Below are positions 15,001 through 18,000 of a DNA stretch of 64,000 bases, piece after piece (position 1 is the stretch's first letter; each line of letters starts with the position of its first letter). The position numbers were made by a program. The stretch is from Pecten maximus (taxonomy: Eukaryota). The stretch covers positions 39,308,001 through 39,372,000 of the forward strand of contig NC_047016.1 of the NCBI RefSeq assembly GCF_902652985.1. Direction: 5' to 3'.

Positions 15001-18000
15001 GAGACTTATCCATCATACGCCATTGATTCGCGTGCCAAAGATGGCGACCCCAGCCCGAGCAGACGAGACTAATCTGACGGGAAAGCCTTACAGACTATCC
15101 CTGAGATTGACCGACCCTCGGCTGTGACAGGCCGTTTGTCCGGGTTCACATGATATATTGCAAGAATATAGAGTGTCGCTTAGCCCTTGATTTGTCTGAA
15201 TTGAAAATGTTTTAATTAAAGTTGTCGTCATCGGACATGTTTGGCGGTCCTCTTCACAAAAGAGCAGACTATCGGTATGCAAGGAGCACGCGACTTCGCG
15301 CCTCCGTCCATTTAGGTATAGCATGTACACGAACGTGTCGAGAATTGGCTGCACACATATATATATATAGCCCGAGTGTTTAAATCTACAGAGAATTGTT
15401 ACCGTATATCAGACAGGTTTGATGAGAGGACTCAGGATGATGTGTCGCCGAGTACATCGAATTAAGAACGGAACAGACACCATCGGCAATTATTGTTATA
15501 TTATATAGAAAAATAAATAAATAGATAAATAAATAAATAAATAAATAATAAATAAATTAACTAATCAATACCGAGGTTCAAACGAAATGCATAACGGCAT
15601 AACTTTTAATGTGTATATGAAAAGAACACAAAAAGAACGAAGGCGACATTCACACCAACCGAATCACAGTTCAATAATCAATATTTATTTCCTTCATTGA
15701 AACTTATTCTTGTAATATGTTATTTGGAACGTATTATGGGTGTATAACGCATAAGATACATATGCAAATCAATAAGGACTTTCAGTTTTATTCCATAAGG
15801 GTCAAGATATATTTTATATTTTGAAAAATTGGGGTGGTGAACATAGTTTTGCAATTGGGCTGTACAGCAAGGATTGTGACAATTAAACCGGTACTATGGT
15901 GACTATATCATTATCATAATTACTGTATTGTTCGAGTTCCTATCTCAATGAACCATACCATTGGAAAGGAACTTTTAAATGTAGTTTGTATCATATTAAC
16001 TGTTATTATCTAACGTCCTATTCACACGATCTGGTTGTTCAAGGATGGCTAGCATTCTGGTTCCTGTTAGGATTGTTCAGAAGACATACGTCAAGTTAGT
16101 GGAAACTTTAGGATTGGATTTACTTATTCATAAAACTGTACCATACAGCTGATACATCCTTCTGGTAGTCACCAGTGATGTTAGGGCACCACGTAGCTGT
16201 TTCGTCCTTCTAGGACTCGTCAGTGATGTTCGGGACACGATACAGTTGTTTCGTCCTTTTAGGACTCGTCAGTGATATTAGAGACTCCACACAACTGTGT
16301 CGTATGAGCCAAAATTGGTGAGATGTCAAGAAAACCAAAATGTACCTAAACAATTGATGAAATGGGTGTATGTGTATTGAGACCCAAAAATTACGTAAGA
16401 GTTTAATAACATAATATACGTATAGTAGCTTGGATAGAATAACTCTGGTTTAAACTGATTTTACACACAATTTTACATATCAATACTTATCGTGTTTGCT
16501 TTCACAATACGCGTTTCTTGATAAAACATTAAAGTCACTTTGACAAACTGACCACACAAAGTTCTGAAATGACCACAATGTAACTCCAAAATATGCTTCT
16601 CCTTCGCAGACCCATTCCGACTGGATGATTGGATTGCCCAATTGGCTTGCCTCGATCCTGATAATTGCATATATAGATACAGATATTTATATAAACTGGT
16701 ATGTATCTGTATGAGGGTCATCACGTTTGCTGAATAGTGTATTGGAAAAACAACGCAACTGATAAAGTAGAAGGTACTAAAATAAACGTTTAAAACATTT
16801 ACCCATTTATAGTCTATAGCCAGTCTCTGTCAGAACGAAGGAGAGGAAATTTAGAGAAAATTGTACCTTATGGTTAGGAGAAAGTTTGGTGAACCACTTG
16901 TATTAATGTTTTCTTGTTTTTATAAGATGTTATTGAGAGCCAACCATCAAAGATGAAAGTTTGATGAGCATCACAACAGCTGGAAAAGATAAGCCAATCT
17001 GCAATTACCATAAGGTAAGCAGCTATGTAGGAGCGGGGACCAAGTCTTTAAGGGCAACTGGGTGCAGTTTGTGGTAGAACAGTCGTCAACATGTGTTTCC
17101 AAAAACTTAAAAAACACATTTTTAAAATTATTATTAAGATAATATCAAAAACCACTATTTAATGATTTTCACAATGGAATACTTTTGATTTCAATTTAAT
17201 TGATTATGACCAAGACAATCGTACCAGATAGATAAGTAATTACGTATATATCTATCGATTTTTGACACAAGAAACATTTCTTTGGTCACATATATATCGT
17301 ATGTAATATTGATACCAATATCTATACTTTTATATCAAACAATATGTTCTCCAGACTAAAATTCGTGAAATTTAACATAGATCTTCAACATCAATTAAAC
17401 CCCTACACAAATCGTGTGAACATCCTGTTTTGGTCATTATATCATTTTCATCGCGCCATTAATTAAATGTCTGTATCTTATCTAAGTACTCGAAAGTTAG
17501 ATTAGCAATATATTGGATGTTAAAACATTTGTAATAGACTTTCAGAAAAGTTAATTCCTATTTAGTACGTAACCTATTTACAACGTAAAGTGCGAAAAAT
17601 TAGGGTTTTCGAGAAGGACACGTCATGGTTAGGTGTTTAAACAGCAACACTGTAACATTCCTTTTTCTCTTTATGGAGGATTAAGCGTATACAAAAGAAA
17701 GAAAGAAAGAAAACAAACAAACAAACAACAATACCATTTGTGTCTCCTTTAAACATTTAAGTTATCATTAATTACTAGTCTACAACAGAAATCTTTTGTA
17801 AAAGAATTCAAACAAAAGTGGAAAGTATTAAAACATTTGTTGATGATGGTGAGAATGAGGATGATGGTGAAAGTTGATGATGATGATGACTATGATTATG
17901 AACAGTATGATAATTGATGATGAAGTGAATGCAGTGGGTGTTGTATGATGATGAGGAGGAGGAGGAGGAGAAGAAGGAGGAGGAGGAGGAGAGGAGGAGG

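What the first reader, a model, noticed from the sequence alone, without database searches (positions are those of the whole stretch)
16141..16303. Third, inverted and older copy shows the ribozyme repeat is dispersed
Seen: the same unit and similar period on the minus strand, more diverged, 11 kb from array A and 41 kb from array C. By eye the flanks of the three loci share no sequence. Inference: the multimer itself is the mobile entity, inserted independently at different times, and three loci in 64 kb imply a high genomic copy number. No reverse transcriptase ORF is present in the window, so a partner (Penelope-like or LINE) would act in trans.
Basis: partly seen in the sequence, partly recalled or inferred. 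Interest (0 to 1): 0.65.

Follow-up and report, generated by a model that had tools for sequence, protein, structure and literature searches.

The report
Decayed third hammerhead-ribozyme repeat array
A short, worn-out, inverted block of a 49-base repeat that encodes a self-cutting hammerhead RNA sits in what looks like scallop DNA; it belongs to an already described class of ribozyme-bearing repeats and is unlikely to be active itself.

Summary
Window 16141-16303 (minus strand) carries about 3.4 copies of the same 49-bp type I hammerhead unit that forms array A (3988-5168, 24 units) and array C (56969-57359, 8 units). The host is probably a scallop.

Supported parts of the interpretation:
- The 3-kb flanks share only microsatellites.
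- No reverse transcriptase or GIY-YIG domain was found.
- No solo units lie elsewhere in the window.

Unsupported or contradicted parts:
- No target-site duplications and no poly(A) tails.
- Array A contains a perfect 200-bp duplication that includes dead units.
- All 8 units of the youngest array, C, carry a G12-to-A core change.
- So arrays grow at the DNA level, whatever the ribozyme's activity.
- Genome-wide copy number could not be tested.

Array B is a relic. None of its 4 units meets all hammerhead requirements, and it no longer prefers the double-hammerhead fold that two A or C units adopt.

It fits the known class of animal non-LTR retrozymes / Penelope-type dimeric hammerheads, at the short end of the size range. 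I rate it a new member of a known kind, of modest interest.

The parts
16141..16303 (-). Array B: about 3.4 decayed 49-bp hammerhead units (B0 partial, B1, B2, B3 degenerate). This is the finding.
   Evidence: TRF period 49, 3.4 copies, 74% matches. blastn to arrays A and C at 76-83% identity. Unit register.
16230..16278 (-). Unit B1: both catalytic core blocks and the cleavage triplet are present; helix I pairs 5 of 6, helix III 3 of 4. It is the best-preserved unit of B.
   Evidence: Rfam Hammerhead_1 29.3 bits, below the gathering score of 34. Census.
16181..16229 (-). Unit B2: core blocks intact, but the 3' strand of helix III and the cleavage site are lost (G at position 17).
   Evidence: helix III 2 of 4, site bad. 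Rfam 15.7 bits, E 1.1.
16141..16180 (-). Unit B3: degenerate last unit; both core blocks are destroyed.
   Evidence: Custom model 17.6 bits, E 0.0092.
16279..16303 (-). B0: partial first unit holding only the 3' half. It shares the GAC-ACAGTTG variant with units A03, A04 and A08.
   Evidence: Alignment. Nearest unit is A03, with 5 differences in 25 positions.
3988..5168 (+). Array A: 24 units, with a degenerate lead-in from about 3940. Older 5' subfamily A01-A11 and younger 3' subfamily A12-A24. Seven of 24 units are fully intact hammerheads.
   Evidence: Six units reach the Rfam gathering score.
4135..4534 (+). Perfect 2 x 200-bp higher-order duplication: units A04-A07 equal A08-A11. Three of every four units have dead cores.
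   Evidence: 0 mismatches in 200 nt.
56969..57359 (+). Array C: 8.0 units, 1.7% internal divergence. All 8 units carry the G12-to-A core change and a C-to-U change in helix II.
   Evidence: Rfam 22.3-25.5 bits. The last unit aligns as far as 57359. 56970-57060 equals 57264-57354 at 100%.

Best explanation
Window 16141-16303 is a decayed, inactive, short array of a 49-bp tandem repeat whose unit is nothing but a type I hammerhead ribozyme plus a 5-nt linker.

Unit layout: helix I of 6 bp; core CUGACGA; helix II of 4 bp with a 5-nt loop; GAA; helix III reduced to the palindrome ACAGCUGU; cleavage predicted after GUA.

Because helix III has no usable loop, one unit cannot fold into an active ribozyme. 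Two neighbouring units pair through their palindromes into a double hammerhead. The family behaves like a minimal animal non-LTR retrozyme, or Penelope-type dimeric hammerhead, that has become a minisatellite.

Inferred: the three loci were seeded separately by hammerhead-only sequence, most likely as RNA copied by a Penelope-like reverse transcriptase acting in trans.

Shown: arrays then expand and homogenise at the DNA level by segmental duplication or unequal exchange, regardless of whether the ribozymes still work.

Array B is a relic of such a seed and now drifts neutrally.
For: Shown:
- Same unit, period and register in three loci.
- Rfam Hammerhead_1 reaches its gathering score in 6 units of array A.
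- The minimum-energy fold of two units is exactly the double hammerhead with an 8-bp helix III: A18-A19 at -29.1 kcal/mol and C02-C03 at -23.9 kcal/mol. A single unit prefers an inactive fold (-11.9/-12.0, against -9.4 for the hammerhead fold).
- Array B has lost this. For B1-B2 the double-hammerhead fold is -11.7, against a minimum of -19.5. None of the 4 B units meets all core, site and helix criteria.
- Flanks are unrelated and inter-locus alignments end at the array borders.
- No solo units lie elsewhere in the window; every hit with E<0.01 lies in the three arrays.
- No RT or endonuclease domains.
- DNA-level growth: a perfect 200-bp duplication that includes dead units; a 6-unit-offset perfect repeat in C; the G12-to-A change fixed in 8 of 8 units of C.
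- No depletion of changes in the catalytic core: 11 of 70 changes fall in 11 core positions among 15 distinct units, permutation P = 0.25.

From papers:
- Metazoan type I hammerheads have a weak palindromic helix III and act as dimers in tandem repeats. They occur in Penelope-like elements and in non-LTR retrozymes, including a mussel (PMC4209133, parts 1-2 of the text; PMC7229834, passages).
- Retrozyme consensus lengths of 51-972 bp, and a proposed route from a Penelope-like element's terminal sequence to local amplification by unequal crossover (bioRxiv 10.64898/2026.07.22.740005, Results part 1 and Discussion).
- In vitro insertion by one Penelope-like element does not need hammerhead cleavage (PMC11167929, passages).
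Against: - No target-site duplication of 6 nt or more at any junction, and no poly(A) tail. This includes the young array C, where decay cannot be blamed.
- No Penelope-like element in the window, so the partner is only inferred.
- The most homogeneous array, C, is made wholly of units with a catalytic G12-to-A change. It cannot have arisen through the standard cycle of self-cleavage, circle formation and rolling-circle reverse transcription. That G12 is catalytically essential is recalled from the hammerhead literature, not tested here.
- No RNA data and no other genome were available, so transcription, cleavage and copy number are untested.
- n = 3 loci.
Confidence: 0.55

Rival explanations
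1. Purely DNA-level satellite. The 49-bp unit spreads between loci as DNA, for example as excised circles of repeat units that reintegrate, or by ectopic recombination. The ribozyme is an irrelevant passenger inherited from some ancestral element.
For: - DNA-level duplication inside arrays is directly visible: 200 nt with 0 mismatches and a 6-unit-offset perfect repeat in C.
- Dead cores are fixed in all 8 units of the youngest array.
- No target-site duplications or A-tails.
- Array C is an integral 8.0 units with both ends in the same phase, as expected for a linearised circle.
- No excess conservation of the catalytic core.
- The window carries at least seven other minisatellite arrays, so tandem-repeat formation is common here.
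Against: - Seven of 24 units of array A keep every hammerhead requirement, and two-unit transcripts fold into the double hammerhead as their minimum-energy structure.
- The published class is expressed as processed RNA in a mussel and other animals (PMC7229834, passages).
- No direct evidence here for DNA circles.
Confidence: 0.3
2. The arrays are remnants of pseudo-LTRs from 5'-truncated Penelope-like elements, that is, pieces of a larger transposon whose body has decayed.
For: Penelope-like elements carry hammerheads, sometimes as tandem minimal copies, in their terminal repeats, and most insertions are 5'-truncated (PMC4209133; PMC7229834, passage on axolotl; preprint Discussion).
Against: - No sequence beyond the 49-bp unit is shared between loci, even between A and C, which are up to about 92% identical.
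- No RT or GIY-YIG match in ORFs of >=40 aa within about 4 kb of the arrays, or of >=75 aa anywhere in the window.
- The ORF directly upstream of B on the same strand (16476-16829) has no Pfam match and reads as non-coding.
Confidence: 0.07
3. The arrays are host genes for small processed RNAs (49-nt linear or circular RNAs) with a cellular function. B would be a pseudogene copy.
For: The fold and core are preserved in part of array A. Retrozyme circular RNAs accumulate to high levels in animal tissues (PMC7229834, passages).
Against: - Half or more of the units in every array are catalytically damaged.
- No core conservation signal.
- No promoter evidence.
- Array C is entirely mutant at G12.
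Confidence: 0.05

Closest known systems
Metazoan non-LTR retrozymes (tandem repeats with type I hammerheads; Cervera & de la Pena, NAR 2020, PMC7229834)
   Same: - Head-to-tail tandem repeats.
- Canonical type I hammerhead: 6-bp helix I, 4-bp helix II, and a very short helix III with a palindromic centre that favours dimers.
- Low GC: 39-54% per unit.
- No coding capacity, LTR, primer-binding site or polypurine tract.
- Known in a bivalve (mussel).
   Different: - The unit is 49 bp, against 150-450 bp (mussel 350-390 bp). There is no spacer, only 5 nt between ribozymes.
- Expression, circular RNA and target-site duplications were not shown here.
- A 2026 preprint (10.64898/2026.07.22.740005) reports vertebrate families with consensus lengths down to 51 bp, so near-ribozyme-only units are already on record.
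Minimal/dimeric hammerheads of Penelope-like elements (Cervera & de la Pena, MBE 2014, PMC4209133; Lunse et al. 2017, seen only as a citation in PMC6765202)
   Same: Type I topology; palindromic, loopless or near-loopless helix III; activity expected only as dimers in tandem copies; widespread in invertebrates.
   Different: - The Penelope-type minimal motifs described there have a longer helix II (6-8 bp), a shorter helix I (4-5 bp) and a bulged base. This unit has the canonical 6/4-bp helices and scores on Rfam Hammerhead_1.
- No Penelope-like ORF or terminal repeat surrounds the arrays.
Newt satellite 2 and Schistosoma Sm-alpha hammerhead repeats (as summarised in PMC6765202 and PMC7229834)
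   Same: Genomic tandem or satellite repeats whose transcripts self-cleave through hammerheads that work as dimers.
   Different: Those units are about 330 bp and carry promoters or other sequence. Here the repeat is the ribozyme alone.
Ordinary minisatellites with higher-order repeats
   Same: Growth by block duplication (perfect 200-bp repeat), more degenerate array edges, homogenisation of a variant (G12-to-A) across an array.
   Different: The unit encodes a recognisable catalytic RNA and recurs at unlinked sites with unrelated flanks.

Membership tests
Hammerhead ribozyme type I (Rfam RF00163) | Score at or above the curated gathering score (34 bits) | tested here: not met
   For array B the best unit scores 29.3 bits and the second 15.7 bits. 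The feature is met by 6 units of array A at 35.0-35.8 bits and by no unit of C (22.3-25.5 bits).
Hammerhead ribozyme type I (Rfam RF00163) | Conserved core CUGANGA ... GAA, A15.1-U16.1 pair, and a non-G nucleotide at the cleavage site | tested here: inconclusive
   Array B: both core blocks are present in 2 of 4 units (B1, B2), and the cleavage site is intact only in B1. Array A: 11 of 24 units have core plus site. Array C: 0 of 8, because G12 is A in all.
Hammerhead ribozyme type I (Rfam RF00163) | Self-cleavage activity | not testable with these tools
   Only fold prediction was possible. The double hammerhead is the minimum-energy structure for A18-A19 and C02-C03 but not for B1-B2.
Dimeric (double) hammerhead as in Penelope-like elements and retrozymes | Helix III too short to close on its own, with a palindromic centre, so that two copies form an extended helix III | tested here: met
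   The family consensus has ACAGCUGU with no loop. Two units fold with an 8-bp intermolecular-type helix III as the minimum-energy structure. In array B the palindrome is broken in B1 and B2.
Penelope-like element (pseudo-LTR hammerhead) | Hammerhead lies in terminal repeats that flank an ORF with RT and GIY-YIG endonuclease | tested here: not met
   No RT or GIY-YIG Pfam match in 91 ORFs of >=75 aa across the window, nor in 205 ORFs of 40-74 aa within about 4 kb of the arrays. Flanks are unrelated.
Metazoan non-LTR retrozyme | Tandem, non-coding repeats each carrying a type I hammerhead; low GC; no LTR, primer-binding site or polypurine tract | tested here: met
   GC is 0.39-0.54 per unit.
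Metazoan non-LTR retrozyme | Monomer of about 150-450 bp with a spacer that folds into a rod-like circular RNA | tested here: not met
   The unit is 49 bp (46-51) with a 5-nt linker. The 2026 preprint widens the range down to 51 bp.
Metazoan non-LTR retrozyme | Expressed as self-cleaved linear and circular RNA; mobilised through RNA | not testable with these tools
   No transcript data and no eukaryotic genome collection were available. The prokaryotic collection gave 0 hits.
Metazoan non-LTR retrozyme | Target-site duplications (when present, longer than 4 bp) | tested here: not met
   The longest words shared between the 5' and 3' junction regions are 5-6 nt and do not lie at the junctions.
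Minisatellite / satellite DNA | Head-to-tail array evolving by block duplication and homogenisation | tested here: met
   A perfect 200-bp higher-order duplication; a block pattern of variants in C and a 6-unit-offset perfect repeat; more degenerate array edges.

The most novel reading that the evidence does not exclude
The 49-nt unit may be a complete minimal retrozyme. Multimeric transcripts would cut themselves, through double hammerheads, into 49-nt RNAs that can be circularised. These would be far smaller than the roughly 170-400-nt retrozyme circles reported so far.

The higher-order repeats in array A may show how ordinary retrozymes are born. In the perfect 200-bp repeat (A04-A07 = A08-A11) only one unit in four keeps an intact core. 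Cleavage would then release a 200-nt RNA whose 'spacer' is made of dead hammerheads. On this reading, the spacers of canonical 150-450-nt retrozymes could derive from decayed ribozyme copies.
Probability: 0.12. Interest if true: 0.6.

Novelty: new member of a known kind. Interest (0 to 1): 0.3.

Why it matters
It adds a scallop-like bivalve example at the extreme short end of ribozyme-bearing tandem repeats: a repeat that is the hammerhead and almost nothing else.

Its three local arrays show three life stages side by side:
- Array A is partly active.
- Array C is recently amplified but catalytically dead.
- Array B is decayed.

This gives concrete evidence that array growth is a DNA-level process decoupled from ribozyme activity. 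That bears on the open question of how animal retrozymes amplify. The class, the dimeric ribozyme and the proposed Penelope-like partner are all already described, so it does not change the picture.

Tried and rejected
- A fuzzy-regex scan for the unit timed out with no output. I replaced it with blastn-short and a covariance model.
- Two scans of the prokaryotic genome collection for the unit, hoping for mis-binned host contigs, found 0 stretches. Genome-wide copy number, other loci and Penelope-like elements carrying this hammerhead all stayed unchecked.
- Translating whole frames with stops read as X for a Pfam scan failed because the output was too large. I used stop-to-stop ORFs instead. 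These can miss badly frame-shifted RT remnants shorter than 40 aa.
- A 10-nt word is shared by the 5' flank of B and the 3' flank of C. I noticed it by eye in the output. It does not extend and was not reported by blastn at E<=1, so I treat it as chance.
- The 3' ends of the three arrays all fall within about 12 nt of the unit, around the predicted cleavage site. With n = 3 this is not significant and I do not use it as evidence.
- tblastn of the Ylistrum balloti protein found only one PAN exon (residues 27-113, 92%) and a weak 57% match at 22832-22963, so no gene model could be placed around array C.
- Literature searches:
  - hammerhead + scallop + satellite returned only shark papers among the 15 listed.
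  - hammerhead + satellite DNA + bivalve returned 0 papers.
  - hammerhead ribozyme + minisatellite returned 7 papers, of which only the 2026 preprint was relevant.
  - The retrozyme/mollusc/scallop search was too loose to be useful.
- Lunse et al. 2017 and de la Pena & Garcia-Robles 2010 are not held.
- Supplementary figures with the mussel and Penelope-type hammerhead sequences could not be seen. Sequence-level kinship to published mollusc hammerheads is therefore unchecked.
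Full report
**What is at the coordinates**

Tandem Repeats Finder lists 16140-16303 as a period-49 array of 3.4 copies with 74% matches. Read on the minus strand it consists of:
- B0, a partial first unit (16279-16303);
- B1 (16230-16278) and B2 (16181-16229), two full 49-nt units;
- B3, a degenerate last unit (16141-16180).

The same unit builds array A on the plus strand: TRF 3992-5156, 24 units in register from 3988 to 5168, with a degenerate lead-in from about 3940. It also builds array C: 56969-57359, 8 units, 99% matches. blastn aligns B, inverted, to A at 76-83% identity and to C at about 80% (E down to 2.8e-39).

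**Host**

The window has no N and 36.8% G+C. Its only clear coding signal is a PAN-domain ORF at 57716-58030 (Pfam PAN_1, E 1.3e-07). Its best database relative is an uncharacterised protein of the scallop Ylistrum balloti: 92% identity over 83% of the ORF, E 3.2e-59. Only that one exon of the 836-aa protein maps to the window. I take the source to be a scallop or a close relative. It is not human.

**The unit is a hammerhead ribozyme and almost nothing else**

Rfam's type I hammerhead model reaches its gathering score (34 bits) in 6 units of array A, at 35.0-35.8 bits.

The layout read from those alignments is:
- helix I, 6 bp;
- CUGACGA core;
- helix II, 4 bp with a 5-nt loop;
- GAA;
- ACAG directly followed by CUGU;
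- A, the predicted cleavage site;
- the other strand of helix I;
- a 5-nt linker.

ACAGCUGU is a palindrome without a usable loop, so helix III cannot close within one unit. RNAfold agrees:
- One unit prefers an inactive fold (-11.9/-12.0 kcal/mol, against -9.4 for the hammerhead fold).
- The minimum-energy structure of two consecutive units is exactly a double hammerhead with an 8-bp helix III and both cleavage sites in place. A18-A19 gives -29.1 kcal/mol and C02-C03 gives -23.9 kcal/mol.
- Across a unit boundary the same sequence also reads as a permuted type III hammerhead. Rfam gives 38 and 34.3 bits, below that model's cut-off of 48.5.

This is the architecture described for animal type I hammerheads in Penelope-like elements and retrozymes, which are thought to act as dimers in tandem copies (PMC4209133, parts 1-2 of the text; PMC6765202, passages).

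**State of the three arrays**

I scored each unit for four things: both core blocks; the A15.1-U16.1 pair and a non-G at the cleavage site; helix I with at least 5 of 6 pairs; helices II and III with 4 of 4 pairs.

| Array | Fully intact units | Comment |
|---|---|---|
| A | 7 of 24 | 11 of 24 have core plus cleavage site |
| B | 0 of 4 | see below |
| C | 0 of 8 | every unit reads AAA where GAA is required (G12 to A), and has a C-to-U change in helix II |

In array B:
- B1 keeps the core and the site but has one mismatch each in helix I and helix III.
- B2 has lost the 3' strand of helix III and has G at the cleavage position.
- B0 and B3 are wrecks.
- B1-B2 no longer prefers the double-hammerhead fold (-11.7, against a minimum of -19.5).
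- Rfam gives B 29.3 and 15.7 bits, both below threshold.

B is therefore a relic. That G12 is catalytically essential is recalled from the hammerhead literature, not tested here.

**Age**

Mean pairwise difference within arrays is 1.7% (C), 7.9% (A12-A23), 16.1% (A01-A11), 20% (B1-B2) and 33% (B1-B3). B is the most decayed. However, B1 and B2 differ from the array consensuses at 7-10 of 49 positions, and the two halves of array A differ at 7 of 49. Short arrays also escape homogenisation. 'Older' is plausible but not established relative to the 5' half of A.

**Is the repeat part of a larger element?**

- The six 3-kb flanks, compared in all pairs by blastn (word 9, E<=1), share only AAAT/TAAA microsatellite and poly-A matches of at most 55 nt.
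- In a self-comparison of the whole window, alignments between the loci stop at the array borders. Apart from within-array matches of the other tandem repeats, only two other small dispersed repeat pairs exist.
- A covariance model built from 14 units, run without filters, finds every hit with E<0.01 inside the three arrays, so there are no solo units.
- Pfam finds no reverse transcriptase or GIY-YIG endonuclease in 91 of the 102 stop-to-stop ORFs of >=75 aa in the window. The 11 dropped ORFs lay inside the arrays at 26.8-27.9, 30.9-31.8 and 38.4-38.7 kb.
- Pfam also finds none in 205 of the 229 ORFs of 40-74 aa within about 4 kb of arrays A, B and C. The 24 dropped ORFs lay inside the 22-bp satellite or the hammerhead arrays.

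The rival that the arrays are parts of a larger shared transposon is largely excluded for this window.

**Is the multimer the mobile entity?**

This is not shown.
- No target-site duplication of 6 nt or more lies at any junction, and no array ends in an A-tail. For the young array C, decay cannot explain this.
- Growth at the DNA level is directly visible. 4135-4334 and 4335-4534 are identical over 200 nt, and this four-unit block contains three units with dead cores.
- Array C shows blocks of a linker variant (units 1-3, 4-6, 7) and a perfect repeat at an offset of six units.
- The G12-to-A change is fixed in all 8 units of C. In the double hammerhead each site is cut by the core of the next unit. 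An all-mutant array therefore cannot have come from the standard cycle of self-cleavage, circle formation and rolling-circle reverse transcription.
- Among 15 distinct 49-nt units, changes are not depleted in the catalytic core: 11 of 70 changes fall in 11 core positions, permutation P = 0.25. So nothing indicates selection on the ribozyme within these arrays.

A seed of one or two units expanded in place explains the data as well as insertion of a ready-made multimer.

**How it most likely works**

Shown:
- a hammerhead-only 49-bp unit at three unlinked sites with unrelated flanks;
- a dimer-dependent fold;
- DNA-level array growth independent of activity;
- B as an inactive relic.

Inferred: each locus was seeded by hammerhead-only sequence, most plausibly an RNA copied by a Penelope-like RT acting in trans. 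Support from papers:
- Penelope-like elements co-occur with retrozymes and share their ribozyme type (PMC7229834, passages; preprint Results).
- Penelope-class repeats are annotated in a relative of the scallops, a limid clam (PMC11373642, passage).
- One Penelope-like element inserts RNA in vitro without needing hammerhead cleavage (PMC11167929, passages). That would allow even dead units to be copied.
- The preprint's Discussion proposes the two-stage route favoured here: a terminal hammerhead sequence followed by local amplification by unequal crossover.

The main rival is spread purely as DNA, for example reintegrated repeat circles. The lack of duplications, the integral 8.0 units of C and the dead but amplified array fit it equally well.

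**Comparison with what is known**

The unit works like, and is best filed with, animal non-LTR retrozymes and dimeric type I hammerhead repeats. It meets the tandem, non-coding, low-GC, type I dimeric criteria. It fails the usual monomer size: 49 bp against 150-450 bp, and 350-390 bp in mussel (PMC7229834). Expression and RNA-mediated mobility could not be tested.

A 2026 preprint reports vertebrate retrozyme families with consensus lengths from 51 bp, so near-ribozyme-only units are already on record.

It is not a Penelope-like element, because no RT-endonuclease ORF is present. Its helices (6 and 4 bp) are those of the canonical animal hammerhead, not of the 'minimal' Penelope-type variant described in PMC4209133.

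My searches found no paper linking hammerheads with bivalve satellite DNA or with scallops (where only shark papers were listed). Supplementary figures with published mollusc hammerhead sequences could not be seen, so sequence-level kinship is unchecked.

**Verdict**

Dispersal with unrelated flanks and the absence of a local RT hold.
- I rate it a new member of a known kind, of modest interest (0.3).
- The most novel reading still open is that 49-nt ribozyme RNAs are the smallest retrozyme intermediates, and that higher-order repeats with one live unit in four show how retrozyme spacers arise from dead hammerheads (probability about 0.12).

Noticed in passing
window 9-1532; 8508-9196; 21413-21765; 26796-27884; 30942-31641; 38401-38654: The window is unusually rich in other minisatellites: a 22-bp unit x 70 copies; 53- and 30-bp units; G-rich 27/53-bp units; a 31-bp unit x 35; G-rich 32/65-bp units; a 42-bp unit x 6 at 96%. 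None matched an Rfam family at E<=1. Tandem-repeat formation seems to be a general property of this region or genome.
   Followed up: partly
window 4135-4534: A perfect 2 x 200-bp higher-order repeat inside array A, with one intact hammerhead per four units. If transcribed and cleaved, it would release a 200-nt RNA, the size of an ordinary retrozyme monomer.
   Followed up: partly
window 57716-58030 (+): A PAN/Apple-domain exon, 92% identical to Ylistrum balloti LOC132551801 (residues 27-113 of 836), lies about 360 bp downstream of array C. No other exon of that protein maps to the window, apart from a weak 57% match to residues 1-43 at 22832-22963.
   Followed up: partly
window 44877-45067 and 45816-46005: An inverted repeat pair of about 190 bp at 76% identity, with arms about 750 bp apart. 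It may be a foldback or the terminal inverted repeats of a small transposon.
   Followed up: no
window 39752-39857 and 52238-52344: A dispersed inverted repeat pair of about 106 bp at 75% identity, of unknown nature.
   Followed up: no
window 48641-48709; 52176-52203; 40775-40832; 56160-56199: Long homopolymer tracts: about C69, C28, about A58 and about A40.
   Followed up: no
window 3590-3708: A 41-bp x 3 tandem repeat lies 230-280 bp upstream of array A and is unrelated to the hammerhead unit.
   Followed up: no
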